Assembly: GCA_963662405.2 (NCBI GenBank)
Contig: CAXXKT010000001.1
Span: forward strand, 192,001 to 256,000
Direction of reading: 5' to 3'
Origin: Syntrophales bacterium
GTDB taxonomy: Bacteria; Desulfobacterota; Syntrophia; Syntrophales; UBA2210
DNA length: 64,000 bases
Shown here piece by piece: positions 36,487-58,227 of this stretch. Both the position numbers and the translations under genes were made by a program. The notes under the pieces are model-generated. The model was not told the DNA's origin. It saw nothing but the letters and a program-made list of their open reading frames with translations, and searched no databases. Each line of letters starts with the position of its first letter. Positions within the stretch are counted from its first letter, which is position 1.

Positions 36487-36563
36487 ACCCCCGTAGCTCA
36501 GTAGGATAGAGCAACGGATTCCTAATCCGTGTGTCGTGCGTTCGAATCGCACCGGGGGTACCA
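36487..36563 (+). tRNA. tRNA-Arg(CCT)
   Basis: Acceptor stem ACCCCCG/CGGGGGT, anticodon arm ACGGA-TTCCTAA-TCCGT, T arm GTGCG-TTCGAAT-CGCAC, encoded CCA. Confidence 0.97.
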
Positions 36564-40459: not shown

Positions 40460-41032
40460 TTTCGCTGACTGGCGGTCAGAATATTTGTAACATATTGAAT
40501 ATGAGAAGGTTGTTGAGGAGAGCGGACTGGCGGAGGGGCACACAACCATGCCCGAACAACATGCCTGATTAAATGAAACATCAAACCGGATTGAATGAAA
40601 TGTTAGAAAAAGAGGGGAATAATAATATCACCGTTTGGGCATGAGCCAGCCGAGGAAACCATACCGAACCAAGCGCTTCCCGGGACGCTGAATATGTCGG
40701 CGGCCTGACTGGCATGTTGCCTGATAGCGGCGCAAATAATCGTATCGTTAAGATATTACTGAAAGCAATTTCATAATATTGCTTCAATCGTAATTCTATC
40801 AATTACAGGAGGAAGCAGAACGCAGTAACATACGAGCTCTGCCCCTGTTGCACCAAATCTCACACGTTTAACTACCGCTTGGGATCAGTTTTGGGGAAAA
40901 TCGATGATTGCCGTTTTAAAGTCTCACTGAAATGTGGCATGGGTGAATGAATTCGAAAAAACAACACTTCAAGAAGCGAGTTAGCAAAAGTCACATCTGA
41001 CGGTCTTACAACAAGCCGGATCGCTTCCTTCA

Positions 41033-41090
41033 CTACTAACAAATGATTTTGATCAAAGGGAAATGCTGAGCTTGACCGTTGGAAGTGTAG
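41033..41090 (+). repeat. Platform B right arm, copy 1 (52/58 identical to 55176-55233)
   Basis: CTACTAACAAATGATTT.GATCAAAGGG...ACCGTTGGAAGTGTAG. Confidence 0.9.
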
Positions 41091-41165
41091 CAAAACGTCT
41101 AAGCTCACCGTCGACACTGGAGCGCAACGGAATTGCCATCCGTGTGTAGCACCTCGCGGTTTTAT
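41090..41165 (-). other. Degenerate attC site after the R-M genes
   Basis: Minus strand ATAAAAC...GCTACACACGG...CGGTGAGC-TTAGAC-GTTTTGC, starting at the REase stop codon. Confidence 0.6.
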
Positions 41166-41905
41166 CAGCCAAGGCGTGCTGCTTCTGCGGCAATATGCCC
41201 GGCTAAAGCCGTCACAAATGCTTTAAGCCCAGTCATTGATGAAAGTTGAGAAAAATCTCCAGAATCTACTGCGCTACGTTCTGCCGCGATTACAGTGGCC
41301 GTTGTATATAGCTGCTCTTGTACAAGCCGCTGACATAGTAAGTCGTATCGCTTAAGGTACGAGGCTCCCTTAAATTCCTCAAAAACTGGAAAGTGTGGCG
41401 ATGAATCCCGCACAGGACTTCTTGACTTTGCGGTATCTTCAACCATTATTAGCCAACCTACAAACGGGCGAGGTTGTTTCCCAAAAGCTCCCTCACGGTA
41501 AGCCGTCCAAAGATCGTGTGCTGTTCCGATGGCTTCTTCAGTCCGATTGTTAAAATTGTTACCAAAAGAGGGCCCTACTTGGCTTTTTAACTCAATCGCG
41601 GCAATTAGCTCTCCCTTGTACATTACTAGGAGATCCCACAATTTTGTTGGCCGGAAATACCCCGGTAGCGTCAGCATCGCCCGGTTCTGGTGTATCTCAG
41701 CACGAGCTAGCCCATTGGCCTTGATGATGTCGAGCACCAAAGCCAAGAAACCATCCATGTTCTTGCCTGCGGTCACGCCTGCACGTTCCCCCTGGTCGGC
41801 TTTTCCAGATTCAATCTGCTTCTGCTTTGCTGCTTCACGGTTGCCCCAAAATGCCTTTACGGCTTCACGGGATTTTTGTTCGTAATCAGCGAGATCAAGA
41901 GCCAT
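41165..41905 (-). CDS. Type II restriction endonuclease, PaeR7I/XhoI family
   Basis: [25 protein letters not shown] and [22 protein letters not shown] motifs. Confidence 0.9.
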
Positions 41906-43633
41906 TTATTCTCCATTGCCTCCAAGGGTAGATCGTTCTTCGTGACTCAGGCCATAAAGCTTGAACACGGCTCGGTCGCAAGCTTCTATGTCTCGCTTTA
42001 TGGCAGCATCAGCTAACTCTCGGCGCAGCAGCGCAGGCACATCTGCCCAGGGAGGAATGCGAATCCGGCGTAGGTACTGTGCTTGGAAACGCAGGAACCC
42101 CCCTCGCATCTTCGTTGAATAGGTCGCCACGAAAAGGCGAGTGACAGAGGACAACAGCACCGCCTGCAAAGCCCGCAAATCCCACTCATTAGATGTGACG
42201 TGGTATAGGTTATGATGTGGGTACAGTACCCCGCCTTCAAAGACGATATGCGCTTCGCCCTTTATGTCAGGTATCAAAAGCTTCGGCTTTGCGCCCAGCG
42301 CGGGGGTAATGCGATCAATCGTTCGATACCAGTTGACTGGAGCTTTCTTTGCACAGTGGCGTCCCGCAATCACGTCGCGGCGAGCTTCAAGGTATCGTCT
42401 CAGGCGCGGATAGGCGTCGAGGTCAACCAGACCACCCGATTCGGCAAATGGATTGATGACCCCTTGTCCTCGCCACTTAACCTCACCCGACATGATGTCT
42501 TTTGTCGTCACCAGTCGAATTTTCCGATCGGGCTCAACATCAAGTGCGTCGAAGTCCCCGATGAATGCCTCATCTGCGCCGGTGGCGACACCAATGCCGA
42601 CTTTGCATCCGGTCTCTTCGAGTGATGGGAAACACTGCTCCAGACGGCGAATGAGCGTCATCTGATCGTAAGATCCCAGCAGCCAAGGTTCAGAACCATT
42701 CGTGACACAGGCAAGTTCACGCACCCCTCCAGACTCTCCCTGCAATGAAGGAGCACGGAGCAAGTCCGCCAGTGCAGTCAGGGTTGCCCGGTCAATAACT
42801 GGACGATGCGCAATGCGAGTTACACCCGGCACTTCACGGCTGATGATCGTTATAGCAGGGTACGTAATCACGTCAGAATGGAACGCTGGGGTATCCACCA
42901 TATCGACATAGACTCTCAAGTGAAACCGTTCTGCCACCAGACTCCGAAGTGGCCCACCATATCGGTTCTTCATCCACCGATCTGTACAGATAAAACCCAG
43001 ACTTCCCTTATCCGACAAGAAAGAAAGCGAGCGCTCGATGAAGGCGATATAGATGTCTGCCCTGTCAAACATTGTCTGGTAGCGGGTTCGGTACTCTGCA
43101 AGCAAGGGCGCTGAAATAAGCTCCTGACGGACGTAGGGTGGATTGCCCACAACAAAATTAAATTCTCCTTCCAGTGGAGCGAGCAGAAAATCCCCCTGTG
43201 ACAGCCACCCGTCAACAAGAGCCGCTGCAGTTTTGGCCGCTATCCCCTCGCGTTTGAGAAGGGTTACTATCGCCGCATAGGTGCTGCGAAAAGTATCATG
43301 ATGCAACTCGACGGCCTTGATCGCGTTGCTCAGGTCGTCCAAGGCAGTGCCATTCGGCTTTGCAGCCCGCCAGGCGCGCAGCAACCGCTCGATGATCGGA
43401 AGCAGGAAATCACCACCACCAAACGATGGCTCCAAAATCCGCATTTCATGGAGCGGCTGATCTTCCGTGTAACCAACAAGATCGAGAATGAACTCAACTA
43501 CCTCGCGACGGGTAAATATCGCTCCACGTGCGTCAGTTTCTGGATTTAACGCCAACTGATCTATCGCAGCCTGCACTTTTTTTGTGATGTACTCAGGATT
43601 TGGGAAGTCGATTGTAATTTGTGATGATTGCAA
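41906..43633 (-). CDS. N6-adenine DNA methyltransferase (gamma class), partner of the REase
   Basis: [16 protein letters not shown] and VGNPPY motifs; directly abuts the REase. Confidence 0.92.
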
Positions 43634-43671
43634 GAAGCTTCCTCTTTGCGTTGGTGTGATATAATACCGCC

Positions 43672-43890
43672 AACAATGAATATGCCCATTAGGTGTTTCC
43701 CGACCTTTCGTGCAATCCTACTTTATTTCACGAAGAATTAAAACAGAAAAATCTAATGTAAAATCAGTACCAATTGATTTTTTCGATTGGTTATTCTGCG
43801 GCAATAAAGAGTAAAATCCTAAGTTGGTAAAACATAGGAGGAATGGCAATGGCTAATAATAAATACCATTTGAAATGATGTATTGACGGA
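43672..43890 (-). repeat. Platform B left arm, copy 1 (homologous to 57685-57870)
   Basis: First 72 nt align ungapped at 53/72 identity with 57685-57756; homology begins at the AAC (GTT on the minus strand). Confidence 0.85.
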
Positions 43891-44059
43891 TCGAATCAAA
43901 TAAACGACAGTGCAGGAAGAATGGCGCAGCAAAACACGAGTTCTGCCCCTGCTGTACCAAATCTCACACGTTGCACCTTGTCCTCACCATCGAGTGCGCC
44001 GAGAGCTCACCGATTGTTTATTGAAGTCGGCATTCTGGGGGGAAGTTTCTGTGTAGCAG

Positions 44060-44429
44060 ATTTCTTTCGGTAATGCGCAGGAATCATCAAAGAAAAAAGA
44101 AATCGTGCTGTTTATTGGTGTCACTTACTACTGCTCAGAATAATTCCAGAGGAAAATCGATGAGTACTGATTGAAAGACTCACGGTAAAATCTCTTGACA
44201 ATACTTCGTCGGATAGTTAGTTAAGTAAGCGTTTTGATCTTGACGGCTTTACTTTTTTGAACTGCTGTAATAACCAAAGGGGAGATTATGGTCTGATCAT
44301 CAAAGCTCCGTTTCTTAAAAAGAGAGATGGAGCTTTTTTTATGAATGTCTCGATCGAATTTTAGGTGTTATGACGCACTTTCCCCTGTTTTTAAGATATT
44401 ATACGAGATCCATATAAACATTGTTAGAC
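44060..44429 (+). promoter_or_regulatory. Platform A copy 1: promoter, leader with Met-Val mini-ORF, terminator, attI-like core
   Basis: TTGACA at 44195; GGGGAGATT-ATGGTCTGA at 44288-44296; hairpin plus U-tract at 44302-44340; ATAAACATT-GTTAGAC at 44423. Confidence 0.8.
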
Positions 44430-44466
44430 GATACCAGTTATTCAATTCAGAGAAGGAATTTAAATA

Positions 44467-45437
44467 ATGGTCACAGTTTTTTTTCATATTCTCACCGCGA
44501 TGAAGATCTGAGGAATGAATTGGAAATTCATCTTTCAGCTCTTAAACGCCAGGGTGTTATCCAAACTTGGCATGATAGGCGAATTGAAGCCGGCAAAGAC
44601 CTTGACGATGAGATCGATTCAAATATTGAGGGTGCAAATATTATTCTTCTTCTCGTAAGCCCCTATTTTATAGCATCAGATTACTGTTATAATGTTGAAA
44701 TGCAACGCGCGATGGACCGCCATGTTAAAGGTGAAGCCAGAGTGATACCTGTCATCCTTCATCCGTGTGACTGGCAACAGACCCCTTTTGGGAAATTGCG
44801 GGCCACACCGACTGACGGCAAAGCTGTCTCAAAATACCCCAATCAGCATGATGCTTTCCTCTCTATTACCAAAGATATACGCCATGTTGCCGAAGAAATA
44901 ACCGGAGGATCAAAAAACGGAAATAATATTTTGAAACAATCACGGTATGTCAGAACAGAGGATATAGTCCCATCTCAATTTGCTGAAAAGCCAAGATCAA
45001 GCAATCTAAGAGTTCGTAGAGAATTTACCGACATTGAAAGGACAAGATTTCTTTCTGGAGCTTTGGGCTATTTTCAGAAATATTTTGAGAACTCTCTTAT
45101 AGAACTTCAGGCTCGTTCTGTTGGGATCGAAACCGAATTCAGAAAAATAGATGCAAACCACTTCATGGCTATGATTTTCAAGAAGGGTAATCTGGTTAGT
45201 CAATGCAAAATCTGGCTTGCAATGGATTCTTACTCGACAGGAGAGATCCGTTACTCTTCGTCTGTGTCTGTCAATGACAACTCTTGGAATGAATCACTTC
45301 ATGTAGAAGATGATGGCTATGTTTTGGGTCTCAAAAGTAGGGGATTTCATCATATTGGTTCCGATTCAGAAACATTATTGTCTAATGAAGGTGGCGCAGA
45401 ACTTTTTTGGAGTATGCTTTTGAATTCTTTACAATAA
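44467..45437 (+). CDS. TIR-domain protein; natural start is frameshifted at a T8 tract
   Basis: FFSYSHRDE, WHDRRI and SDYCYNVE TIR motifs; the ATG at 44467 (AAGGA RBS) is out of frame by one T; the ORF track uses TTG at 44421. Confidence 0.85.
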
Positions 45438-45454
45438 AATGTAAGGAGAAGGCA

Positions 45455-45601
45455 ATGATTAGACAACGTTTCAGATGCAGAAACTGCGGCCGTAGATTCG
45501 AAACCGAGGTATTTGAACCAGGTGAAGCTAAAGAAAAGGGTTTGCCTTCTGGTCCAGTGAGGTGCCCAGATTGTAGAAGCACTGATGTAGAAAGAATTTA
45601 G
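45455..45601 (+). CDS. Small zinc-ribbon protein (48 aa)
   Basis: CRNC...CPDC motif; AAGGAG RBS; lies inside the TIR cassette. Confidence 0.75.
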   Translation: MIRQRFRCRNCGRRFETEVFEPGEAKEKGLPSGPVRCPDCRSTDVERI

Positions 45602-45641
45602 TCTTTTGTATTTGCCAGATAGGCAATATACTGATCAACAC

Positions 45642-45713
45642 GTCTAACAAGTCGCTGGAGAATCGACGGGAACACGCTGGTGCGTTTCCCGCGTCTCAGC
45701 TCCATCGTTATAC
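45642..45713 (+). other. attC site
   Basis: GTCTAAC...GCTGGAG / CTCAGC...GTTATAC with inner GGGAAC.CGC/GCGTTTCCC stem; GTCTAAC is complementary to GTTAGAC at 44423. Confidence 0.85.
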
Positions 45714-45752
45714 AAAACAGAGGCCACATGCCAAATTCACGAACAGGAAATC

Positions 45753-48194
45753 ATGAAACTTGACGATTGGAAAGCAGAAACAAAGACGCGATTACCCACT
45801 AGCGCGGTTTATAGTGTTCTAAAAGAGAAGTGTAACAGGGACTCAGCTGGGCATCAAGTGTTGGAACTCGTTGATACCGCTACCTACTATGCATATCAAA
45901 GAACCAAAAGTATAATCCGGCATATGGGAGAGTTTACTCTCCATGATGGAGACCATCTATTCCGTGTGCTGTCGCTGCAGGAACGGTTGCTTTCCAATGG
46001 GCAATTGCGTTCGCTCAATGTTCCTGAACTCATGTTAATGATTTTGTCGGCGTTTTTTCATGATATTGGGATGGCGCCTGATGAACAAGACGTAATAGCA
46101 TGGAAAAAGATATGGGATACTACACCTCAATTTGAGAGCGGTACGGAAGAATTGGAGTATCAAAAATTTGAAAGGTTCTATTTCGCGAGGCCTGATGATC
46201 GCGATAGGGTTGAGCAATGCCTTCGCCGCGGAGATCATACTGGGGCAGACTGTGCTAAAGCTCATGTGGTTAGTGATTATATAAGGACGACACATGCGGA
46301 GCGAGCTAGGCAAATCATTAAGAAAGATTGGATGAATAAGATCGTATATCGCGATACTGACCTTACGGTTGAGTTTGCAGGGATTTGCTTCAGCCATAAC
46401 GAAGATCCACTTTCTTTGCTGGATCTTGATCCCGGTTATTTGTGTGGCCCTGATCTTTATGCAAACTTGCAACTTGTGGCCATTCTTTTAAGACTATCAG
46501 ATATTCTGGATTTCGATGCCAAAAGAACACCATCTATCCTTTTTTCTCACTTGTATGTGCGAAATCCAGTTTCCATTAGTGAATGGAACAAACATCGTTC
46601 GGTAGAGGCGTGGAGCATAACACCTGAAATTTTACAATTTCATGCAAAATGCCGTCATCCGGCTATTGAGGCGTCGATAAATGCTTTTTGTGATCTCATA
46701 GATATCGAGTTGGGTGCATGCAATAATATTGTCGCATCAATAAATAAATTCGATCGTCGTTTTTCTTCATCTGCTATTATGCTCCCCCTAAGAGTTGATC
46801 GAACCAAGGTTGAAACGGTGAAAGATATAGAAGGAAAGCCGGTTTACCTATATCGACAGACGCAGTTCAATCTAAGCAAAAAGCAAGTTATAGATTTGTT
46901 GATGGGAACGAAACTCTACGGTAATCCAGAGGTGGCTTTGAGAGAACTGATCCAGAATTCAATTGATGCTTGCCTGTTAAGGCAGGCACTAGAAGCTTCT
47001 TGGAAAACCAATTACACTCCGAGAGTAAATATTAAATATTATTCTATGGATGGGCAAGATATTCTTGAGGTAGAAGACAATGGAACCGGTATGGATCAGC
47101 ACATTATCGATGCATATTATTCAAAAGTAGGGTCTTCCTTCTATAAGTCTTCCGAGTTCTATGAGCTGAAGTCTCAGGCCAGAGCTAGTTTTACGCCAAC
47201 ATCAAGATTTGGAATTGGGATCTTATCATGTTTCATGGTCGCGGATACGCTAATTGTCGATACAAGACGTGTATATGGACCGCATGAATCAAGTAAACCG
47301 TTGAATGTTACTATCGAAGGACAGGAAAGCATTTTCTGGATTAAATCCGGCAGCCTGTCAACTCCGGGCACTACAACTAAATTATTCCTTCGAAAAACAG
47401 GAAATCCCTGGGATAGGATGGATGAAAACGAATTCATTACATCGGTGGAAGGAATTATTTCAAATCCGCCATTTGAAATAAAGATAGAGACATCTTCTCA
47501 TAGCAAGTCCAGGGATGCCTCAAGCTTTCTCCAAGTGCATGCAAATAACTTAGAAAATCGTTCATGGGAGGAACACGATAACGTTCGGAAGATATCTATC
47601 GAATTTGATGATCCCGCAAGAGGCTTTGTCGGTTCCGCTGTTGTTGCCATATTAGAGAGTCATGGCTTCCCAGTGCCTAAGTTAGAAATGACTTCTCAGA
47701 CAGTCGATATTAATGGTGAACCGTACGAACTTGGAAAGAGCATCGCTATTATTGAGAATGAAATAGAAGAGTCAGCAACAACTATTTCAATAGACGAAAA
47801 TGGAGATATTGATCAATCGAATTCATATCGTTCACTGAACAAGTCCATATCTCAGCTATCTCTGCATGGTATTGAGGTGCCTACCACATTATTTCCTGCA
47901 TCGTGGAGGATGCAAAAGAATCAGGTTAAGCTTTCATGGCCATTCCCTATAATATTGGTGGTGGATGTTTGTGGAGACGCTGATCTAGATCTCAATTCGT
48001 CGCGTACGCAGATAATAATGTCGGAAAAATGGGTCGAGTTTGAAAAACGGCTGTCATTTGAAATATGTTCGAAGCTTGCAGACTCTGTGTCTCGGGATTA
48101 CTGGGAAAAACTTAGAAATGTGTTGTTGTCAAATACGAAAAACCCAATCTTTTCTCAGAGTGTAAACGAAGTTGAAAAAAGCTACAACGTATAA
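45753..48194 (+). CDS. HD-domain (HD-CE-like) + HSP90-like HATPase protein, putative defence
   Basis: FTLHDGDH...FFHDIGM; LYGNPEVALRELIQNSIDA, DNGTGMD and SRFGIG motifs. Confidence 0.85.
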   Translation: MKLDDWKAETKTRLPTSAVYSVLKEKCNRDSAGHQVLELVDTATYYAYQRTKSIIRHMGEFTLHDGDHLFRVLSLQERLLSNGQLRSLNVPELMLMILSAFFHDIGMAPDEQDVIAWKKIWDTTPQFESGTEELEYQKFERFYFARPDDRDRVEQCLRRGDHTGADCAKAHVVSDYIRTTHAERARQIIKKDWMNKIVYRDTDLTVEFAGICFSHNEDPLSLLDLDPGYLCGPDLYANLQLVAILLRLSDILDFDAKRTPSILFSHLYVRNPVSISEWNKHRSVEAWSITPEILQFHAKCRHPAIEASINAFCDLIDIELGACNNIVASINKFDRRFSSSAIMLPLRVDRTKVETVKDIEGKPVYLYRQTQFNLSKKQVIDLLMGTKLYGNPEVALRELIQNSIDACLLRQALEASWKTNYTPRVNIKYYSMDGQDILEVEDNGTGMDQHIIDAYYSKVGSSFYKSSEFYELKSQARASFTPTSRFGIGILSCFMVADTLIVDTRRVYGPHESSKPLNVTIEGQESIFWIKSGSLSTPGTTTKLFLRKTGNPWDRMDENEFITSVEGIISNPPFEIKIETSSHSKSRDASSFLQVHANNLENRSWEEHDNVRKISIEFDDPARGFVGSAVVAILESHGFPVPKLEMTSQTVDINGEPYELGKSIAIIENEIEESATTISIDENGDIDQSNSYRSLNKSISQLSLHGIEVPTTLFPASWRMQKNQVKLSWPFPIILVVDVCGDADLDLNSSRTQIIMSEKWVEFEKRLSFEICSKLADSVSRDYWEKLRNVLLSNTKNPIFSQSVNEVEKSYNV

Positions 48195-48250
48195 CAAGGT
48201 TTTTACAGGGATCGCAAAAACCGCGCGTTTGCTGAAAAACAACGTTATGC
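48189..48250 (+). other. attC site
   Basis: GTATAAC (contains the stop codon)...GTTTTTACAG / CTGAAAAAC...GTTATGC; GTATAAC is the exact complement of GTTATAC at 45707. Confidence 0.85.
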
Positions 48251-48275
48251 GTTTTGTGCATAAGGGGAAGTTAAA

Positions 48276-50087: not shown

Positions 50088-50090
50088 AAC

Positions 50091-50152
50091 ACATAACATC
50101 TTGCAGATAAGGACGTGCAAAACTCCCCGCGCCTCATAGCATTGCGTTAATG
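50091..50152 (+). other. attC site (partly degenerate)
   Basis: ACATAAC just after the stop codon...GTTAATG; 62 bp; ACATAAC is near-complementary to GTTATGC at 48244. Confidence 0.65.
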
Positions 50153-50154
50153 AT

Positions 50155-50363
50155 TACTGAAAGTCTCACGGGGGAAATTTCTTGACATGACGCTACTATA
50201 CAGCTAGTAGTTTAGAAGCTTCATCGGTCTTGACCGCTTTATATAGGTTTTTGAACAGCTGTAACCGGAGGGGATTATGGTCTGATCATCAAAGCCCTGT
50301 TTCTCAAAATGAGAGATAGGGCTTTTTGTTTTGTGTGAACGCCCTAGAATAATACTGTTAACA
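50155..50363 (+). promoter_or_regulatory. Platform A copy 2
   Basis: TTGACA at 50182; GGAGGGGATT-ATGGTCTGA at 50277-50285; AAAGCCCTGTTTCTC/GAGAGATAGGGCTTTTT terminator; AATAATACT-GTTAACA at 50357. Confidence 0.8.
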
Positions 50364-50381
50364 GTAGAAAACGGGTGACAT

Positions 50382-52703
50382 ATGAACCCTACTTTTATTG
50401 ATATTCACATTCATACATCGGAGAATCCAGACAAACTCAACCCAAACTATGACGTTAACTCATTGTATGAAAATGTGACCAAGGTCGCGCATGAAGCAGA
50501 TACACTAATATCATTGTCAGATCATAATGTTATAAATGAAAATGCCTACCTAAAAGCCTTACATAAATTCCCCAATATGCTTATCGGATGTGAGTTGCAC
50601 ATTCGAAACTATCAGAATAAACCTCCCTATCATTGCCATATTCTTTTCGGTACTCCAACGATAGATCACGAAACTATTTCGAAGATCAATGAATCCCTGC
50701 TAAAATTATATCCGAAGAAGGTTGTTAAAAATGCAGATACAAACATTCCAGAAATACAAGACATCATAAAAGAATTTGAGGAATACGACTTTCTGGTTCT
50801 TCCTCATGGTGGACAGTCCCACTCAACTTTTGACATATCCATTCCTGATGGCGTTATATTCGACAGCAGTCTTGAAAGAAGTATTTATTACAACACCTTT
50901 GACGGATTCACTGCAAGAAGCAACAAAGGTCTAGAAAAAACAATTGAATATTTCAAGCGCCTCGGAATTAACGATTTTGTCAATCTCATTACTTGCACGG
51001 ACAACTACAATCCCCAAAAATATCCTAGTCCAAAAACAGATGAATATGAAGAATATATCCCTACTTGGATGAACTCATTGCCAACATTTGAAGGCCTAAG
51101 ACTTGCTCTATCAGAATCATCTCGGCTTTCGTACCAAAGTGACCCCCCCGGTAGATGGTCGGAATACATCAAATCGGTGCACTTGTCGAATCCCAGAATA
51201 GAAATCGACGTCAATTTGAGTGAGGGCTTAAATGTGGTTATTGGTGGTTCATCAAGTGGAAAGACTCTTTTTGTAGATTCCTTGTATTGCAAGATCGTTA
51301 ACAATTATGAGGAGAATGTTTATGTCAAGTCGCAATATCCTGTCAAGGATATAGACGTCAACAATCCTTCAGGATTGACTCCACATTATATCAACCAAAA
51401 CTATATTACTAAAATTGTCGATACCAAGAACAATGAGACGAGAATTGATGATATTGAGATAATAAAAACCCTATTTCCAGACGATAACGAGGCAAAACTC
51501 AACATCCAACGGTCATTGCATGACTTCAGAGAGTGTTTCAAGGAACTCCTAAGTAGTGTGAAAGCAATAGAGGAGATTCAGAGTTCCCTGAAAAGGATAC
51601 CCTTCCTTTCGCAGTTGATATTGTTGGCAAAAGTAAAAGATAACGTGATTGAGAAACTTCTGCCATCTCCAGAGCAAATACAATTAATTCATATTTCCAA
51701 AGCTTTGCACCACTCATATTCTGAACATCTTGAACAAATAGATAACTTTTTGACAAATAATCCGGTCATTGACCACGATCCATCTTTGGTTATGAGGTTA
51801 AAAGATGAATTGGATCTAGCGTTTTCCTTCTCTCATTCTGAGGAACTTGTCAGAGCCATAATCGAGAAAAAGAAAGCCGACCAGAAAGCTTGGCTTCTCC
51901 AGTTGAACAAAGAAGGACAGCAAAAAAAAGATTCCTTTAACGATCTGACACGATTTTTTACCAATTACAACATCGCAGTCAAGAAATTCAATAACTGCTT
52001 AATAAGGCTTGGTAAATTCGATACAAAGGCGCAATCAAACACAATTAAAGCAATGGGACATATATTGTATATCGAAAACCAATTTTGCATAAATAGCAGT
52101 ACGTTTATCGATATTCTGAACCAATTTCTAAAAAAGGAAAATCAGATTGAATCGATGGACACTTTACACCCAGAGTCGCTATTCTTCGCCAATTTCAAGC
52201 AAAAGCCTAAGATCAGCGATTATGATGATTTGGAGTCTAAGGTGTACGCTAAATTCGAAGGCCTTAATAAGAAATCATTCAAAATCACTACTAGCGACGG
52301 AAGGGATTTTGATAACCTAAGTGCTGGTTGGAAAACATCTGTAATATTGGACTTACTCTTAGGCTATGAAGAGGATTTTGCTCCCATAATAATCGATCAA
52401 CCCGAGGACAATCTTGCGAATCCTTATATAAACAGGGGGCTGATCAAAGCTATCAAGGATATCAAACCAAAGAAACAAATAATTCTAGTGTCGCATAATG
52501 CCACGATACCAATGTTGGGTGATGCTCAGACTGTTGTTGTTTGCAAAAACGAAGAAAATAGGATTGAAATAAGATCCGCCAAACTTGAGGGTAACATAAA
52601 CTCAAAAAAGGTTGTCGATCATATTGCCGAGTTGACAGATGGCGGCAAGGTATCGATCAAAAAGAGGGTCAAGAAATACAACCTTAGAAAGTTCAGGGAA
52701 TGA
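50382..52703 (+). CDS. PHP phosphoesterase-ABC ATPase fusion (Ppl/TrlF-like), putative defence
   Basis: DIHIHT, SDHN, GCE and TD PHP motifs; GGSSSGKT, LSAG, IIDQPEDNL and SHNA ATPase motifs. Confidence 0.85.
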   Translation: MNPTFIDIHIHTSENPDKLNPNYDVNSLYENVTKVAHEADTLISLSDHNVINENAYLKALHKFPNMLIGCELHIRNYQNKPPYHCHILFGTPTIDHETISKINESLLKLYPKKVVKNADTNIPEIQDIIKEFEEYDFLVLPHGGQSHSTFDISIPDGVIFDSSLERSIYYNTFDGFTARSNKGLEKTIEYFKRLGINDFVNLITCTDNYNPQKYPSPKTDEYEEYIPTWMNSLPTFEGLRLALSESSRLSYQSDPPGRWSEYIKSVHLSNPRIEIDVNLSEGLNVVIGGSSSGKTLFVDSLYCKIVNNYEENVYVKSQYPVKDIDVNNPSGLTPHYINQNYITKIVDTKNNETRIDDIEIIKTLFPDDNEAKLNIQRSLHDFRECFKELLSSVKAIEEIQSSLKRIPFLSQLILLAKVKDNVIEKLLPSPEQIQLIHISKALHHSYSEHLEQIDNFLTNNPVIDHDPSLVMRLKDELDLAFSFSHSEELVRAIIEKKKADQKAWLLQLNKEGQQKKDSFNDLTRFFTNYNIAVKKFNNCLIRLGKFDTKAQSNTIKAMGHILYIENQFCINSSTFIDILNQFLKKENQIESMDTLHPESLFFANFKQKPKISDYDDLESKVYAKFEGLNKKSFKITTSDGRDFDNLSAGWKTSVILDLLLGYEEDFAPIIIDQPEDNLANPYINRGLIKAIKDIKPKKQIILVSHNATIPMLGDAQTVVVCKNEENRIEIRSAKLEGNINSKKVVDHIAELTDGGKVSIKKRVKKYNLRKFRE

Positions 52704-52936
52704 GCATGAAAATGCATTTTTCAAGAAGCGATACTGGCGAAACTGTGGTGCAACTTATCGAAAATGGGGATGCGTTACCTTTCAATTACATTACACTTGT
52801 GAAGCATCTGATCGTTAATGCGAATCTGGAAGAGACAACATTTGATGAAGAGTTTTCCTCTGAAGAACAGGCTGCTGTGAATTCAATGGCTGAACGTCTT
52901 GTAGAGGCATGTAAAAAAGAACCGAAGGCCAGCTGA
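52700..52936 (+). CDS. Small acidic hypothetical protein coupled to the PHP-ATPase
   Basis: ATGA overlap with the upstream stop codon. Confidence 0.65.
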   Translation: MSMKMHFSRSDTGETVVQLIENGDALPFNYITLVKHLIVNANLEETTFDEEFSSEEQAAVNSMAERLVEACKKEPKAS

Positions 52937-53063
52937 GTTGCAGGGTACCTGTTTATTACCAGAATTATACAATAACTCGATCCCGATTAGTTTTCTAGAC
53001 TTCAGGAAAAATTTAATAAACCATGGACTTAGGCTGTTCTATTATGATCTGCTCGGGCAATTC

Positions 53064-53129
53064 CTAGACGTACGCGATCTTTAACTTCTGGCCGACGTAG
53101 ATCCGATTCCGGAACCTTATCTTGTTAAC
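53064..53129 (-). pseudogene. C-terminal LysM-domain remnant
   Basis: VNKIRFRNRIYVGQKLKIAYV* resembles the end of a LysM domain; the upstream sequence is unrelated. Confidence 0.5.
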
Positions 53130-53148
53130 TTGAATCAGAAATATTGAA

Positions 53149-53469
53149 ATGCCAACTTTTTTAGAAATGAAGATTGATAACGATATTGAAAATATTCTTA
53201 AAGATACCATTAGAGATATCTTTGAATGTAAGGACGAAGAAAAAAGACTGGCCATTGATGTATTCTTTGAGTTGGCAAAAGATTGTTCGATCCCATCAAA
53301 TGTTTTGGATAAAATTCTTTATTATTTTATAAATTTTCATGGACCTAATAAAGCTGGGAATAGAGTAGCAGCTAATATTTTTAAACAGAAGTTTGATGAG
53401 TCATATAACAGCTCGGATTTTAGCCAACTTCTAGCAATGATGAAGCATGATCAGGATAAAGGATCATAA
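53149..53469 (+). CDS. Hypothetical protein
   Basis: ORF track, AT-rich, no recognisable motif. Confidence 0.5.
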   Translation: MPTFLEMKIDNDIENILKDTIRDIFECKDEEKRLAIDVFFELAKDCSIPSNVLDKILYYFINFHGPNKAGNRVAANIFKQKFDESYNSSDFSQLLAMMKHDQDKGS

Positions 53470-53607
53470 AGAGGACAAATAAGATAGGGGCAGAGGCTTT
53501 TTGACTGAACATTGCTAATTACTAAAAAGAAATCTACAAATTGTGGTGATTACTTGTATTTGTAGTCAATAAATGTGGGAAATGGATTCACGGCTTGGCT
53601 TTCAATC

Positions 53608-53954
53608 CGTACTGTTCAGGCAGGATAAAGGAAAATGCCAGAGTGTCGGTTATTGACGCCACCTACTACTGCTCAGAATAATTCAATTAGAAAATCAACA
53701 ATTACTAATTGAACGTCTGATGGTAAAATCTCTTGACAATACATTATCATAGAGTTAGCTAGAAAATGATTTTGGTCTTGATTGTTTCTGCTTGTGAGCA
53801 GCTGTAGCCAAGGGGGATTATGGTATGATCATTAAAGCCCTGTTTCTCAACGCGAGAGATGGGGATTTTGTTTTTTGTGGACAGGTTATGTTGATATCGA
53901 TGTTGCCGGATGAAGAATGGGTTTTTATCAGGATCCAGATAAACATTGTTGAAC
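53608..53954 (+). promoter_or_regulatory. Platform A copy 3
   Basis: TTGACA at 53733; AGGGGGATT-ATGGTATGA at 53820-53828; hairpin plus U-tract at 53834-53876; GATCCAGATAAACATT-GTTGAAC at 53948. Confidence 0.8.
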
Positions 53955-53970
53955 TCATAAGGAAAATTGA

Positions 53971-54999
53971 GTGGAAGATTTACATCAAGAGTTTTTGAAA
54001 ACACTCAATGAGGTGATTGAGAAAAATCCAGAAAAAGCAGATGAGATTGATATTGAGCAACTCATAGCAGATGTAACCCCAGAAGCCGTTCGCTTAATAA
54101 AAAGCTCTCTTCTAAAATCCGCGAAAAAGATGCTTAAGGAGAGGCGAAAGTTAGCTAAAGGCTTCGAAAAGCGGAACATAAAACGCTGGTCTAAAGCATT
54201 CGATTTATTAGAGTCTCACATTGTTATATGTACAGAGGCAGGAGAAGAATTCAACTCATCGTATAGACCAACTGCTGCTGAGGAAAACAATTTAGTATTT
54301 GATATTGTTGTCAGACATCATGCAAGAGCCTGTCATATTGCACAGGAAATTCTATGTCTCTTAAAGGCAGGTTTTGCTGATGCTGCTCATGCCAGATGGC
54401 GTGCTCTCCATGAAGTAACCGCGACAGGAATGTTCATAGCTAGACATGGTCATGATTGTGCAGAGAGATTCTATTTTCATGACATTGTTGATTCTTACGA
54501 CGGAATGCTTGAGCACAAAAAGTACGAAGATCGGCTCCAGGAAAAGGCACCCTCCCAAGAAGAGCTCGATAGCTGCAAAGTAGAATATGACGAACTGATT
54601 GCACGATACGGTAAGAAATTTGCAGATCATTATGGTTGGGCTTCATACTTGTTCCCAAAACATAGGCGAGTAGGTTTTACAGCAATAGAAAAGAATGTTG
54701 GCTTGGATCATATGCGCCCCTACTATAGGTGGGCTAGCCAGAATATACATTCGGGCTCTAAAGGAATGAGAAACCGTCTCGGACTGTGTGAGGCAAAAGA
54801 CGATATTCTACTGGTTGGGCAAAGTAATTCAGGAATGACAGATCCTGCTCATGCAACAGCTATTAGTTTAAACCAAATTACTTGTGCTCTTTTGATGCTT
54901 GAGCCTACGTTAGATCATATTGTGATCATGAAAATAGCTGATGAATTTCAAAATGATGTGGGGGAAGCATTCCTAGAGATAGAGCGAAATGATTCATAA
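53971..54999 (+). CDS. DUF5677-like protein
   Basis: EILCLLKAGFADAAHARWRALHE and YYRWASQNIH patterns. Confidence 0.7.
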   Translation: MEDLHQEFLKTLNEVIEKNPEKADEIDIEQLIADVTPEAVRLIKSSLLKSAKKMLKERRKLAKGFEKRNIKRWSKAFDLLESHIVICTEAGEEFNSSYRPTAAEENNLVFDIVVRHHARACHIAQEILCLLKAGFADAAHARWRALHEVTATGMFIARHGHDCAERFYFHDIVDSYDGMLEHKKYEDRLQEKAPSQEELDSCKVEYDELIARYGKKFADHYGWASYLFPKHRRVGFTAIEKNVGLDHMRPYYRWASQNIHSGSKGMRNRLGLCEAKDDILLVGQSNSGMTDPAHATAISLNQITCALLMLEPTLDHIVIMKIADEFQNDVGEAFLEIERNDS

Positions 55000-55061
55000 C
55001 AAATCAATTAAGCGGAAAATCAGGCCTGCGGCCTATTTTCCGCTTATCTCAGTCGTTAATA
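54994..55061 (+). other. attC site
   Basis: TCATAAC (contains the stop codon); TAAGCGGAAAAT.AGGC/GCCTATTTTCCGCTTA stem; GTTAATA. Confidence 0.85.
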
Positions 55062-55175
55062 ATTTTTGAAAGAAATCCTTGCAATTGTTTCAATATTTAT
55101 TTTATCGGTTACAGGAAGAATCGCGCAGCAAAAGTATTTCTCGGACACTCCTGCGGCGATTTTCCCACTCTTCAC

Positions 55176-55233
55176 CTACTAACAAATGATTTCGATCAAA
55201 GGGGAATACTGAGGATTACCGTTGGAAGTGTAG
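55176..55233 (+). repeat. Platform B right arm, copy 2
   Basis: 52/58 identical to 41033-41090. Confidence 0.9.
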
Positions 55234-55292
55234 TAGAATACCAGTTTCACTGGCACCAACTGTTTGGCGTCCAGTGCAAAAAGATGTTAGCA
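55233..55292 (-). other. Degenerate attC of the DUF3800 cassette
   Basis: Minus strand TGCTAAC-ATCTT-TTTGCACTGGACGCC...GGTGCCAGTGAAA...ATTCTAC (the R' G appears mutated). Confidence 0.65.
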
Positions 55293-55300
55293 TTTCATCC

Positions 55301-56527
55301 TAGTACCATGTAACATAATATGTTTCGTATTTATAAAAGGTATGATAGACTGGCGGCAAACCAACAGAGGAGGTTGCCATGTCGCCAAGATATCGAGTAA
55401 CCCTTACCAAAGAAGAACGCAAAGAGCTTGAGGCAATGACCCATAGAGGAAAGACCCATGCCCGAAAATTCATCCATGCCCGCGCATTACTTTTGTGCGA
55501 TGCCGGCTCTGACGGTCCGGCATGGAACGTGTCCGATGTTGCAGAGGCGCTTGGGGTGTCGAGCCGTTCGATCGAACATCTCAAAAAGCGCTTTGTTGAA
55601 GAGGGGCTTGAAGCAGCTCTCGAACGCAAGGCACGGGAAAAGCCTCCGAGAGACATCATTTTTGACGGTGCATTTGAGGCACGATTAGTCGCATTGGCCT
55701 GTTCAGACACTCCCGAAGGACATCGTCGCTGGACGGTCAGATTGCTTGCCGACAAAGCTGTCGAGCTTGGCATTGCCGATTCCGTATCACACATGACCGT
55801 ACAGCGGATTTTAAAAAAAACGAACTTAAGCCTCACATCAGCAAATACTGGAAAATCCCTCCCGAAGGGAGCGCGGCCTTTGTAGCATGCATGGAAGATG
55901 TTTTGGAGATATATCATCTGCCCTATGATCCCGACTATCCGGTTGTCTGCATGGATGAATCCTGCAAGCAACTGATAGGTGAAGTTCGAGAGCCGATGCC
56001 ATGCGCACCGGGAAGGCCGATGCGAACAGACGACGAGTATGTCAGAAACGGGGTAGTGGAAATATTTATGGAAGTTGAGCCCCTTGCTGGCAGAAGACAT
56101 GTGGCGATCACGGAACATCGAACAAGAAAGGATTGGGCGATGCAGACCAGGCAGATGCTTGATGAACGCTATCCCAGCGCCCTCAAGGTTCGTCTGGTCA
56201 TGGACAACCTGAACACCCATACAATCGCCTCACTCTACGAAACATTCAAACCCGGGGAAGCCAGGCGTTTAGCGGAACGACTCGATATCCATTATACGCC
56301 TAAACACGGAAGCTGGCTGAATATGGCAGAGATCGAGCTCAGCGCCCTGAAAGGACAATGCCTTAATCGCCGGATTCCCGACATAACGACCATGCGAACC
56401 GAAGTGGCCGCATGGGAAAAAGATCGAAACAACAGCGCGAAAAACATTGTATGGCAATTTACTACTCCTGATGCTCGCATTAAGTTGAAGCGCCTTTATC
56501 CGAAGCTATAAACGTTACATGGTACTA
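55301..56527 (+). mobile_element. IS630-family insertion sequence
   Basis: Perfect terminal inverted repeats GTACCATGTAAC/GTTACATGGTAC flanked by TA on both sides. Confidence 0.95.
55379..56511 (+). CDS. IS630 transposase, two ORFs joined by a -1 frameshift at A8 (55813-55820)
   Basis: HTH ORF (RWTVRLLA) then DDE ORF (CMDE, MDNLNTH, GSWLNMAE); the shift restores LKKNELKPH. Confidence 0.92.
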
Positions 56528-56538
56528 GTATCTTTAAC

Positions 56539-57657
56539 TCATTGTTTTTCTAGAAAATCACCAATTTTTTCAAAATGTATTTTTTCCATTTTTTCGATTG
56601 TTTTTTTCCCTTCGTCAATTTGTTCATCACTTACGTCACACTTTGAGAGTTTATATAACCACCCTCTGGCAATAATTTCAGAGGAAAGCCTTGAGATATA
56701 GAACGATTCTGTAACATCGAGTAATTTATTTTTTAAACTAGCGTTTGCTATTTTATCGTTTCTTTGTGAAAGCCATAAAAAAATATCAACGGCCTGAAGA
56801 CTCACGATCTGCTTTGACATTGCCAGTGAAAATTGTCCAAGATCGTAATCAACTTGATCAACCTGTAAGCCCAATCCACTTGAATTGTGTTCAAGCCTGA
56901 ATTTCTGAAATATTTTATGGTATTCCCTCATTGTAGAACCAAATTCTGACTGAGAATGATGAACAAAGGCTTTTGGTTTTGTATTGTTTTCTTTACAGAA
57001 TTTGTGAACAGCCTGAATTAAACTTGAAAAAGCAACCATGTTGGGAGTATGCTCCTTGTATGACTTTTTTGTTTGGCTTGCCAATAGTGTAATTTCATCA
57101 GGGTATTTAAGTGCAAAATTAAGACCTTCAGTAGCAACTTGGTGGAGTCTTTTATCAACACTTATAAGATCAAGCCGTTGCAATACGATGTTTATCACTG
57201 ATCTAATTCCAGTAAAATCATCTTTGAGATAATAATCCCAGAAATTCTTTTTGTCTTCTTCAAAAAGAAGGTCATCAAAAAGAATACATAACGTATGTCT
57301 AAAAAACTCGTGATTATACCATAACCACCGTGCACCTTTATTTTCGTAAGAGTCGAAAAGACTATCAACAAATTTCGTCACTGATAAATAAGGCTTTTCA
57401 ATGACCGTTAAGTGAAAAACCCATTTTATATTTTCGAGGAGATCTAAAAATGAAGTTGCTATTCTTTCTACAAGATGAGGTTTAATTTCGTTCGCATGAA
57501 GTCTATCTACACCCAATTCAAATTTATACTTTTCAGCAACTTCATTTAGCAAAGGTTCAGTATCAATTTCCGAGATTATTGCTCCTTGAAAGTAAAAAAG
57601 TGGCTCATTAAAAATGTGGCGTCCTGAATGCCCAGACTCATCGGCGTAAATATACAT
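56539..57657 (-). CDS. DUF3800-like protein
   Basis: N-terminal YIYADESG, LHANE and C-terminal LQAVD motifs. Confidence 0.75.
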   Translation of the reverse strand: MYIYADESGHSGRHIFNEPLFYFQGAIISEIDTEPLLNEVAEKYKFELGVDRLHANEIKPHLVERIATSFLDLLENIKWVFHLTVIEKPYLSVTKFVDSLFDSYENKGARWLWYNHEFFRHTLCILFDDLLFEEDKKNFWDYYLKDDFTGIRSVINIVLQRLDLISVDKRLHQVATEGLNFALKYPDEITLLASQTKKSYKEHTPNMVAFSSLIQAVHKFCKENNTKPKAFVHHSQSEFGSTMREYHKIFQKFRLEHNSSGLGLQVDQVDYDLGQFSLAMSKQIVSLQAVDIFLWLSQRNDKIANASLKNKLLDVTESFYISRLSSEIIARGWLYKLSKCDVSDEQIDEGKKTIEKMEKIHFEKIGDFLEKQ

Positions 57658-57684
57658 TTTTATATTCGTTTCTTATCGGATGTT

Positions 57685-57870
57685 AACAATTAATATACTT
57701 GGTGGGTATTTTCCAAACTTTTGTACAACCCTACTTCAATTCATGAAAAATGAAAAGCGGAAGTTTCGTCGTGAAATCAAGTACAATTGGATTTTGACCA
57801 ATGGGTATTTTGTGGTAATGAAAAATGGCAGCAGTTCAACAAATACTGTTTGAAGTAGCGCATTGCCCTG
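57685..57870 (-). repeat. Platform B left arm, copy 2
   Basis: Homologous to 43672-43890; starts at the GTTAACA core on the minus strand. Confidence 0.85.
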
Positions 57871-58227
57871 AAAATTACTGAACACTCACTTACAGGAAGG
57901 AGCAGATAATCTACATGAGCCTAAAATGTACAGCCCGAGTTGTCCTACCTTTCAACCCACATTTAATAAGGTTGACCGACAAATTGTGGTGATGACTTGT
58001 ATTTGAAGTCTCGCACATCTTTGATGAAAGCAGTTTCATAGATTTCAGAAGGAAGGTGTCTGGATTTTACGAAATCCAAATAATAAACTTTCCAGGCTTA
58101 GAGTGCTTCGGGCCGTTGCATTTGGCCTCTGCGCGGTGGTTGTGAAACATTTGAGAAATAGATGGACTTGAAAGGAGTGGCCACATGAAAAAGGGTGGCC
58201 CTCTCACAGAATCGAAAAGACCACCCA

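What the first reader, a model, noticed from the sequence alone, without database searches (positions are those of the whole stretch)
40755..58010. Integrase-less, multi-platform, bidirectional cassette-capture defence island
Seen: the island is a scaffold of diverged non-coding repeats with five GTT-core entry points. Three are on the plus strand (44423, 50357, 53948) and two on the minus strand (43674, 57687). Each is followed by different defence-type genes, mostly ending in attC sites. Order: B-right <attC <R-M <B-left ... A1> TIR+Zn >attC> HD-HSP90 >attC> OLD >attC, A2> PHP-ATPase ... A3> DUF5677 >attC, B-right <attC <IS630 <DUF3800 <B-left. Established: classical integrons have one attI beside intI. 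Inference: a repeated non-coding landing-pad unit, carried on a prophage or island, recruits integron cassettes in trans and gives each short array its own promoter. I do not recognise this as a described architecture.
Basis: partly seen in the sequence, partly recalled or inferred. Interest (0 to 1): 0.9.

Follow-up and report, generated by a model that had tools for sequence, protein, structure and literature searches.

The report
Integrase-less integron arrays on a satellite
A 17-kb stretch of anti-phage genes, carried on a phage-like mobile element, is built from integron gene cassettes that sit behind spare copies of the integron's docking site although the integrase gene itself lies two million bases away.

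Summary
The observation largely holds. The repeats are real. Four of the five "GTT entry points" (44423, 53948, 43674, 57687) are true homology breakpoints. The fifth (50357) is not.

The ends of A1 and A3 are orphan copies of the attI region that follows both resident intI genes. The intact intI lies at C1:2.21 Mb and the broken one at C1:31 kb. The B-type site (…ATTGTT) is a second docking-site family. In two other genomes it heads attC arrays.

Covariance models built only from the two intI-linked arrays rank all four plus-strand attC candidates among the top three hits of the 64-kb window. One minus-strand candidate gets weak support. The candidate behind the restriction-modification genes gets none.

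"Platform A" is attI fused to a roughly 220-nt promoter/terminator repeat with 73 copies genome-wide. The island lies inside a roughly 40-kb element integrated at tRNA-Arg, which has an integrase, a primase and a terminase but no structural genes.

Elsewhere in the genome, one cassette is 100% identical behind an orphan attI on another replicon and inside an intI-linked array. This suggests orphan sites are used in trans.

Closest known: CALINs, including an attI-headed CALIN on a Shewanella prophage, and defence cassettes in integrons. I class this as a new variant of a known kind. The scan had already found the same phenomenon elsewhere in this genome.

The parts
36487..36563 (+). tRNA-Arg (CCT). 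Its last 48 nt (36516-36563) form the left attachment repeat of the carrier element. The right copy is at C1:268415-268462, about 12.4 kb beyond the window end.
   Evidence: synteny with 5 genus relatives stops at the tRNA 3' end
40755..41095 (+). It ends where the R-M module begins.
   Evidence: (nhmmer hit C1:232871-232933, profile positions 6-68)
41165..43633 (-). XhoI-type restriction endonuclease (41165-41905) and type II methyltransferase (41906-43633), behind the B-type site. No attC detected at the distal end.
   Evidence: no model hit
43672..43905 (-). B-type docking-site region 1 (attI-B), read on the minus strand. It ends ...CATATTCATTGTT at 43674-43672.
43911..44343 (+). Platform unit U1: 5' part plus a full leader repeat (DRE), with conserved TTGACA at ~44195 and a terminator hairpin at 44302-44336.
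44364..44425 (+). Orphan attI-A copy 1. It is 85% identical over 62 nt to the attI next to the intact intI (C1:2214332-2214393). Crossover GTT at 44423-44425.
44426..45713 (+). Cassette 1: ThsB-like TIR protein (ORF 44421/44467-45437), 48-aa zinc ribbon (45455-45601) and attC 45642-45713.
45714..48250 (+). Cassette 2: HD-CE plus HSP90/MORC-type ATPase (45753-48194) and attC 48189-48250.
48251..50152 (+). Cassette 3: OLD-family nuclease (AAA_15 plus TOPRIM; 48276-50087) and attC 50091-50152.
50153..52936 (+). 5'-truncated leader repeat (50150-50340, terminator 50291-50325), then a TrlF/Ppl-like ATPase (50382-52703) and a 78-aa ORF. The GTT at 50357 is not a junction.
53536..53950 (+). Platform unit U2, 3' part: 32-nt repeat (53536-53567), leader repeat (terminator 53838-53864) and orphan attI-A copy 2, ending in GTT at 53948-53950.
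53951..55061 (+). Cassette: DUF5677 protein (53971-54999) and attC 54994-55061.
55062..55238 (+). Second truncated platform unit (U 5' part plus leader 5' end, 'B-right').
55233..55292 (-). Weak attC candidate of the DUF3800 cassette, separated from its gene by the IS.
   Evidence: 13.4 bits, E 0.75, rank 2 in the window
55300..56529 (+). IS630-like insertion sequence (HTH_32 ORF 55379-55885, DDE_3 ORF 55891-56511). A 100% identical copy lies at C1:2632809-2634038.
56539..57657 (-). DUF3800 protein, the first gene behind B-type site 2.
57685..57915 (-). B-type docking-site region 2 (attI-B). It ends ...GTATATTAATTGTT at 57687-57685.
57885..58010 (+). Platform unit U2, 5' part, ending in the second copy of the 32-nt repeat (57979-58010). 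In other loci this part is contiguous with 53568-53950.
59358..61280 (-). Large terminase of the carrier element. The rest of the phage-like module runs to the integrase at C1:267244-268338.

Best explanation
The island is the cargo end of a ~40-kb phage-like integrative element inserted at tRNA-Arg. It consists of short integron cassette arrays that have docking sites but no integrase.

Two arrays on the plus strand start at orphan copies of the genome's own attI region (attI-A, ...GATCCxxATAAACATTG|TT). Each copy is fused behind a copy of a genome-wide ~220-nt leader repeat, which has a conserved TTGACA box, a short transcript and an intrinsic terminator. Two arrays on the minus strand start at a second docking-site family (attI-B, ...TATATTAATTG|TT). 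At 43674-44425 the two kinds stand back to back, where a classical integron would have intI.

Cassettes are bounded by attC sites. They were most likely inserted at G|TT by an integron integrase supplied in trans; this genome encodes an intact one 2 Mb away.

Shown:
- the junctions;
- the homology to attI;
- the attC scores;
- the absence of intI in the window;
- the identity of the carrier element.

Inferred:
- that IntI acts on these sites;
- that the leader drives expression, which would require read-through of its terminator;
- that the cargo defends against phage.
For: 1. Integrases. One intact intI lies at C1:2211885-2212937 (TIGR02249, 471 bits against a cut-off of 265). One broken intI lies at C1:30603-31553. 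None is in the window.

2. attI. Both intI genes are followed on the same strand by a region ending ...ATAAACA(TT/CC)GTT, where their attC arrays begin. The end of A1 matches the intI#1 copy at 85% over 62 nt. A3 belongs to the same family. Nine own-genome copies end intact in ...ATTGTT, each followed by unrelated sequence; two more are degenerate at the core (a further intact copy at C1:2668 kb was seen only).

3. Other genomes, attI-A. The 31-nt core occurs in 13 of 37 other genomes of the family. In the junction print, 7 of 13 distinct sites end in intact GTT followed by unrelated sequence, and 6 are degenerate.

4. attI-B. Four own-genome copies and 5 of 6 foreign copies end in ATTGTT followed by unrelated sequence. 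In G016 and G007 the next ~1.1 kb holds two attC hits each, on the correct strand. R3 gave 23.6, 21.2, 16.0 and 15.3 bits; R2 gave 39.2, 23.0 and 17.1 bits. Only 6 R3 hits at E<=2 occurred in 45 kb searched.

5. attC models built only from the intI-linked arrays. R1 gave just 2 hits at E<=10 in the whole window, on both strands, and both were at predicted sites. The top hit of R3 is the fourth predicted site. R3 recovered 7 untrained resident attCs at E<=0.05.

6. Use of orphan sites. C2:54199-54962 is 100% identical to C1:28988-28225, and C2:54955-55094 to C1:27488-27349. The homology starts at the G of GTT. The same cassette is therefore first behind an orphan attI on contig 2 and third in the intI#2 array. 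R1 also finds attCs behind other orphan platforms, at C1:2674474, 2675086, 2677152, 307602 and 156254.

7. Cargo. Type II R-M, ThsB-like TIR (370 bits), OLD/AriA-like and Ppl/TrlF-like proteins.

8. Carrier. A perfect 48-nt repeat of the tRNA 3' end lies beside an integrase. The element also encodes a terminase, a primase, a repressor and methyltransferases.
Against: - No recombination was observed; activity in this island is inferred.
- The attC scores are modest. 45642-45713 reaches only E 1 and 50091-50152 only E 0.08 to 0.5. Each site is seen by only one or two of three hand-built, narrow models. IntegronFinder's own model was not available.
- The R-M module has no attC hit at all. The DUF3800 candidate has ATT where GTT is expected.
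- 3 of 5 intact foreign B-left copies (G011, G003 C2, G006) show no attC at E<=2.
- At C1:881 kb, the cassette behind a B-left copy carries an array-type attC in inverted orientation. I cannot explain this.
- attI-like sites also occur in genomes where no intI was found: G007, G006 and G011, which are 96-100% complete drafts. Many copies may therefore be relics.
- The leader carries a terminator between its promoter-like box and attI.
- The promoter scan was no better than shuffled sequence (33 found against 36.2 expected).
Confidence: 0.7

Rival explanations
1. The arrays are dead relics. They are fragments of once-complete integrons, or of one large chromosomal integron, whose intI was deleted or separated by rearrangement and IS activity. 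Nothing is recruited here any more.
For: - In the resident integrons the order is leader, intI, attI, cassettes. A precise loss of intI would leave exactly the platform seen here.
- The copies are diverged (70-85% identity).
- attI-like sites persist in genomes without a detectable intI.
- IS elements and truncated units are common in the island.
- Cury et al. propose loss and rearrangement as origins of CALINs (PMC4889954, passages).
Against: - No intI remnant lies in the window.
- At least ten independent precise deletions would be needed, or else the platform was copied as a unit.
- An intact IntI with a near-identical attI core is present in the genome.
- A 100% identical cassette sits behind an orphan attI on another replicon, with the junction at G|TT. 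That is a recent event.
Confidence: 0.2
2. The platforms are not attI sites. They are ORF-less promoter cassettes or a MITE-like dispersed repeat, and the GTT junctions are secondary-site (attG-type) insertions or simply the ends of the repeat.
For: - The leader repeat has 73 copies. 46 of the 49 strongest precede a co-oriented ORF of any kind.
- Platform units begin right after the R' of a preceding attC: GTTAATG|ATTACTGAAAG at 50147 and GTTAATA|ATTTTTGAAAG at 55055.
- IntI can insert cassettes at genomic GWT sites (preprint 10.1101/2022.09.11.507474, passages).
- ORF-less promoter cassettes are reported (cited in 10.1101/2025.06.18.660453, passage).
Against: - The part that ends in GTT is not the dispersed leader. 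It is a separate module that follows both intI genes at the head of their arrays.
- None of the three attC models hits the attI regions 44340-44430 or 53870-53955.
- The junction sequence is conserved over 30-230 nt across genomes, unlike the short GWT motif described for attG.
Confidence: 0.08

Closest known systems
[quoted passage not shown] 2016, PMC4889954, passages read)
   Same: Co-oriented attC-bounded cassettes with no intI nearby, in a genome that encodes IntI elsewhere, as about half of CALINs do.
   Different: - Each array here keeps a recognisable attI.
- Several arrays and two attI families are packed together, two of them back to back.
- A dispersed leader repeat stands in front of the A-type sites.
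attI cannot be recognised by IntegronFinder outside classes 1-3 (same paper), so this has not been surveyed.
CALIN with its own attI on Shewanella prophage M16-3 (Qi et al. 2023, PMC9892861, passages read)
   Same: A prophage-borne cassette array without integrase that starts with a copy of the host-type attI.
   Different: - In M16-3 a complete integron with intI sits on the same prophage. Here no intI is on the element.
- Here there are four docking sites of two kinds.
- The cargo here is mostly defence-type.
Defence cassettes in sedentary and mobile integrons (preprints 10.1101/2024.07.02.601686, passages read; 10.1101/2024.07.02.601719, listing only)
   Same: Compact anti-phage genes carried as attC cassettes and expressed from the first positions.
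   Different: Those are arrays beside intI and its Pc promoter. Here the arrays are integrase-less, multiple, and on a satellite-like element.
attG secondary-site insertion by IntI (preprint 10.1101/2022.09.11.507474, passages read)
   Same: Cassettes outside the canonical integron, inserted at a G|WT.
   Different: attG sites share only a short motif. The sites here are long conserved modules homologous to attI.

Membership tests
Integron gene cassette array | attC sites (R''-L''...L'-R' imperfect palindrome) scoring with a covariance model, on the strand of the array, after the ORFs | tested here: met
   With models built from this genome's intI-linked arrays, 4 of 4 plus-strand candidates rank in the top 3 of the window: 26.6, 19.7, 14.7 and 22.4 bits. 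One minus-strand candidate is weak (13.4 bits). The R-M candidate is not detected. IntegronFinder's own model was not run.
Integron gene cassette array | Cassette boundaries at G|TT, with homology between copies breaking there | tested here: met
   Not met for the GTT at 50357.
Complete integron | intI gene adjacent to attI | tested here: not met
   No TIGR02249 match at E<=0.001 inside C1:192001-256000. The intact intI is at C1:2211885-2212937.
Complete integron | attI site at the head of the array | tested here: met
   By homology to the sequence between each resident intI and its first cassette. Binding or recombination by IntI was not tested.
CALIN | At least two attC sites clustered, with no intI nearby | tested here: met
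   attCs at 45642, 48189 and 50091 are spaced 1.9-2.5 kb apart. No intI lies within 30 kb.
attG-type secondary insertion | Target shares only a short GWT motif with other targets | tested here: not met
   The targets are conserved over 30-230 nt within and between genomes.
Anti-phage defence island | Several genes matching known defence families | tested here: met
   PADLOC: type II REase and MTase, ThsB (E 2e-111), AriA/Old, and the Ppl C-terminal part. The HD-CE/HATPase, DUF5677 and DUF3800 proteins have no defence-family hit. No phage assay was done.
Prophage or phage satellite | Attachment repeats, integrase and phage replication/packaging genes; structural genes for a full prophage | tested here: inconclusive
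   Present: a 48-nt tRNA repeat plus integrase, terminase large subunit, primase, repressor and methyltransferases. No capsid, portal or tail family was found among the 20 ORFs scanned. The element is satellite-like or a remnant.

The most novel reading that the evidence does not exclude
Phage satellites and related integrative elements in this bacterial family carry integrase-less, double-headed docking platforms: attI-B and attI-A back to back, with a regulated leader. The platforms borrow the host's integron integrase to harvest defence cassettes from the chromosomal integron. The satellite thereby becomes a mobile, self-refilling defence library that can carry its catch to hosts with or without an integron.
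Probability: 0.35. Interest if true: 0.78.

Novelty: new variant of a known kind. Interest (0 to 1): 0.6.

Why it matters
Integrons are usually pictured as one integrase with one docking site. This genome holds more than a dozen docking sites of two families but only one working integrase. Several of those sites sit on mobile, phage-like elements and are filled with anti-phage genes.

If the integrase serves them all, three things follow:
- Cassette capture is a genome-wide service that mobile elements can tap.
- Many "CALINs" may be active satellite arrays rather than debris.
- Orphan attI sites, which current software cannot see, become a marker for finding them.

The finding also offers compact candidate defence genes (HD-CE/ATPase, DUF5677, DUF3800) for testing.

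Tried and rejected
- Crude attC scans. One used R-box/L-box complementarity plus folding energy. One used an anchored inverted-repeat score. Both were dropped. They gave 1634 and 28560 raw candidates genome-wide, missed most resident attCs, and did not separate signal from background.
- MAFFT alignments of all 13 resident attCs were out of register. I therefore built models on subsets (A3, A5, A8).
- Rfam found nothing in the island at gathering score, and only chance-level hits at E up to 5.
- The consensus promoter scan gave 33 sites against 36.2 expected. It does not support or exclude the leader's promoter.
- RNAalifold on 39 leader copies predicts only the terminator hairpin.
- intI neighbourhoods in G003 and G016 showed no sequence like attI-A or attI-B, so the origin of attI-B beside an integrase was not found.
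- Sequencing runs: three holders from one sample, all kept as contigs, with no RNA holder listed. Read laying was not used because contigs cannot show rare excision products.
- I considered and did not resolve the circularly permuted order of unit U2 (32-nt repeats at 53536 and 57979) and the inverted attC at C1:881 kb.
- Supplementary files of the cited papers were not read.


Full report
**What is in the sequence**

The window is G000:C1:192001-256000. The region 40.7-58 kb has lower GC (35-50%) than its flanks (55-63%). Its genes are:
- an XhoI-type endonuclease and its methyltransferase, on the minus strand;
- a ThsB-like TIR protein with a 48-aa zinc ribbon;
- an HD-CE/HSP90-type ATPase;
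- an OLD-family nuclease;
- a TrlF/Ppl-like ATPase with a 78-aa ORF;
- a 106-aa ORF;
- a DUF5677 protein;
- a DUF3800 protein, on the minus strand.

**The repeats are genome-wide, and "platform A" is two things joined**

blastn of the island against the genome shows dozens of matches. An iterated nhmmer profile of the core of platform A finds 73 copies on all three contigs. The consensus has three features:
- a very conserved TTTCTTGACA box;
- the stretch GGGGATTATGGTCTGATCATC;
- an intrinsic terminator.

The three best terminator-like sites of the island are these hairpins. Of the 49 strongest copies, 46 have a co-oriented ORF starting within 350 nt downstream, and those ORFs are of all kinds. 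I call this element the leader repeat.

A subset of leader copies is followed 75-130 nt later by a second conserved module that ends ...GATCCxxATAAACATTGTT. Beyond the GTT, every copy differs.

**That second module is the genome's attI**

The genome has two integron integrase genes:
- An intact one at C1:2211885-2212937 (TIGR02249, 471 bits; cut-off 265).
- A broken one at C1:30603-31553, with one stop codon.

Both are co-directional with their arrays. Behind intI#1, after an IS3-type insertion, the sequence ...gatattatacgagatccgtataaacattGTT is followed by an array of canonical attCs. Behind intI#2 comes ...tttttatacagaaacaatataaacaccGTT and then another array. A leader repeat stands in front of intI#2.

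Window 44364-44425 matches the intI#1 attI at 85% over 62 nt. The end of A3 belongs to the same family. Nine own-genome copies end intact in ...ATTGTT and two more are degenerate at the core; a further intact copy at C1:2668 kb appears. A platform therefore looks like a resident integron with the integrase gene left out.

No integrase-like match lies in the window.

**The B-type site**

Read on the minus strand, 43905-43672 and 57915-57685 are homologous. They end ...CATATTCATTGTT and ...GTATATTAATTGTT.

- In this genome, four copies end in ATTGTT and two are degenerate.
- In other genomes, five of six copies (G011, G016, G003 contig 2, G007, G006) end the same way, each followed by unrelated sequence.
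- In G016 and G007, the first ~1.1 kb behind the GTT holds two attC hits each, on the correct strand. In G016 these bound small ORFs next to a core HflX gene.
- The other three intact foreign copies gave no attC at E<=2.

I therefore read B-left as a second docking-site family. At 43674-44425 an attI-B and an attI-A stand back to back 750 nt apart, so the "bidirectional" description is right. "B-right" is the 5' ~65 nt of a diverged leader repeat, cut just before its TTGACA box.

**attC sites**

IntegronFinder's model was not available. I built three covariance models from attCs that I located in the intI-linked arrays and in other arrays outside the window.

- R1 was built from 8 short attCs. 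It recovered 2 untrained resident attCs at E<1e-5 but missed or barely scored 4 longer ones.
  - On the whole window, both strands, filters off, it gave only two hits at E<=10: 48189-48250 (26.6 bits, E 4e-4) and 50091-50152 (14.7 bits, E 0.53).
- R2 was built from 23 sequences, including attCs behind other orphan platforms but none from the window.
  - Its ranking was 48189-48250, then 50091-50154 (19.7 bits, E 0.08), then 45642-45713 (14.7 bits, E 1).
- R3 was built from 5 longer resident attCs with a hand-checked R-box/L-box structure. It recovered 7 untrained resident attCs at E<=0.05.
  - Its top window hit is 54994-55061 (22.4 bits, E 0.003).
  - Its second is 55233-55292 on the minus strand (13.4 bits, E 0.75). 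This lies behind the DUF3800 gene and is split from it by the IS.
- None of the three models hits 41090-41165, behind the R-M genes.
- None hits the attI regions themselves.

The scores are modest and each model is narrow. Even so, every plus-strand candidate lies in the correct intergenic gap, on the correct strand, and among the top three hits of 128 kb searched.

**A2 is not an entry point**

The alignment of 50158-50366 to C2:335848-335637 runs through the GTT at 50357. What is notable about A2 is its left edge. The leader copy is truncated at its 5' end and starts directly after the R' (GTTAATG) of the attC at 50091-50152. The units at 55062 and 40755 begin in the same way, after GTTAATA and GTTAAGA. 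I cannot say how these joints arose.

**Are orphan sites used?**

On contig 2, an orphan attI at C2:54126-54201 is followed by a cassette that is 100% identical to the third cassette of the intI#2 array (C2:54199-54962 = C1:28988-28225; C2:54955-55094 = C1:27488-27349). In the intI#2 array the cassette is interrupted by a small IS-like insertion. The shared sequence starts at the G of GTT.

The nearest integrase-like hit on contig 2 is 160 kb away. R1 also finds attCs behind orphan platforms at C1:2673 kb, 306 kb and 158 kb (only 150 of 645 candidates were scored there). This is the best evidence that IntI serves orphan sites in trans. It is indirect for the window itself.

**The carrier**

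Synteny with five relatives of the genus ends at the 3' end of tRNA-Arg (window 36563). A perfect 48-nt copy of that end lies at C1:268415-268462, beside a tyrosine integrase.

Between the repeats are:
- an AMP-binding enzyme gene and small ORFs;
- the island;
- a phage-like module with large terminase, a weak small-terminase match, two methyltransferases, a primase and a repressor.

No capsid, portal or tail family was found among the 20 ORFs scanned. The element is satellite-like or a remnant.

**Other genomes**

- The leader repeat is present in 7 of 7 other genomes of the genus searched, and in 16 of 24 family genomes in that search.
- The attI-A core is in 13 of 37 other family genomes.
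- In the junction print, 7 of 13 distinct sites keep an intact GTT followed by unrelated sequence, and 6 are degenerate.
- G007, G006 and G011 have such sites but no intI at E<=1e-30, although they are 96-100% complete drafts.

That last point fits either relics or carriage on mobile elements.

**Literature**

- CALINs and their proposed origins: PMC4889954 (passages).
- IntI insertion at genomic attG sites and single-attC elements: preprint 10.1101/2022.09.11.507474 (passages).
- A CALIN with its own attI on Shewanella prophage M16-3, beside a complete integron: PMC9892861 (passages).
- Defence cassettes in chromosomal integrons: preprint 10.1101/2024.07.02.601686 (passages).
- Defence cassettes in mobile integrons: preprint 10.1101/2024.07.02.601719 (search listing only).
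- The statement that CALINs can be mobilised in trans: preprint 10.1101/2025.06.18.660453 (passage).

Four searches did not turn up a description of many orphan attI copies per genome, of back-to-back attI sites without intI, or of such platforms on satellites. These searches cover only the held library.

**Earlier notes of this scan**

One search showed that agents working on other windows of this genome reached the same general reading: about ten docking sites, one intact integrase and a repeated leader. So the phenomenon was found before on other DNA of this genome. The attI homology, the copy counts and the leader were re-derived here from my own calls. The B-type family with attC arrays in other genomes, and the back-to-back arrangement, are what this window adds.

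**Verdict**

The island is a set of integrase-less, attI-headed cassette arrays on a satellite-like element. It is a new variant of a known kind (CALIN, chromosomal integron). Confidence in this reading is 0.7.

Noticed in passing
window 44120-44343, 50150-50340, 53658-53880; 73 copies genome-wide (e.g. C1:1415563-1415783, C2:288164-288381, C3:212043-212268): A ~220-nt dispersed leader repeat. It has a highly conserved TTTCTTGACA box, a conserved GGGGATTATGGTCTGA stretch (a possible Shine-Dalgarno plus a Met-Val-stop mini-ORF) and an intrinsic terminator. It sits upstream of and co-oriented with ORFs of many kinds (46 of 49 strong copies), including intI#2. It is present across the genus and in many family genomes. 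It has no Rfam match. It could be a mobile promoter/attenuator or a multi-copy small RNA.
   Followed up: partly
window 53536-53567 and 57979-58010: A 32-nt direct repeat (30 of 32 identical) brackets a 4.4-kb segment. Inside the segment the two halves of one platform unit are in circularly permuted order. In four other loci (e.g. C1:316477-316909) the halves are contiguous. It looks like the trace of a circular intermediate or of a site-specific insertion within the platform.
   Followed up: partly
C1:881271-881780 (locus L040): Behind a B-type docking site, a small cassette carries the array-type ~110-nt attC repeat in inverted orientation relative to the docking site. The canonical insertion rule does not explain this.
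   Followed up: no
C1:2214394-2214533, 2216456-2216595, 2218682-2218824, 2222062-2222197, 2225080-2225218, 2230474-2230608 (locus L009): An ORF-less ~135-nt cassette (GTTCAGGGGGCGCTCC...CCTGAACATGCGGCGG...CCGCCGCATGTT) recurs at least six times in the intI#1 array and also occurs elsewhere (C1:20650, C1:881638, C2:55084, C2:287818).
   Followed up: no
window 40000-40610; copies at C1:2630051, 268652 (inverted, just outside the right attachment repeat), 701951, 2378992, 502037: A multi-copy ~0.5-0.9 kb segment with a 91-aa ORF. One copy lies inside the carrier element near its left end. An inverted 87% copy lies just beyond its right end. Another copy flanks the similar island at 2.63 Mb.
   Followed up: no
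C1:27489-28224 (locus L010): A ~740-bp insertion with terminal inverted repeats GGGTCTTGACTAGAACAGC interrupts a cassette of the intI#2 array. The same ends appear after leader copies at C1:441980 and C3:212043.
   Followed up: no
C1:2212960-2214200 (locus L009): An IS3-family element (two ORFs of 114 and 276 aa) is inserted between the intact intI and its attI.
   Followed up: no
window 41034-41084 and 55177-55227: The 5' end of the diverged leader ('B-right') scores weakly as an attC on the plus strand (8.5 and 10.4 bits with R2). It has R''-like CTAACAAAT and R'-like CCGTTGGAA boxes.
   Followed up: no
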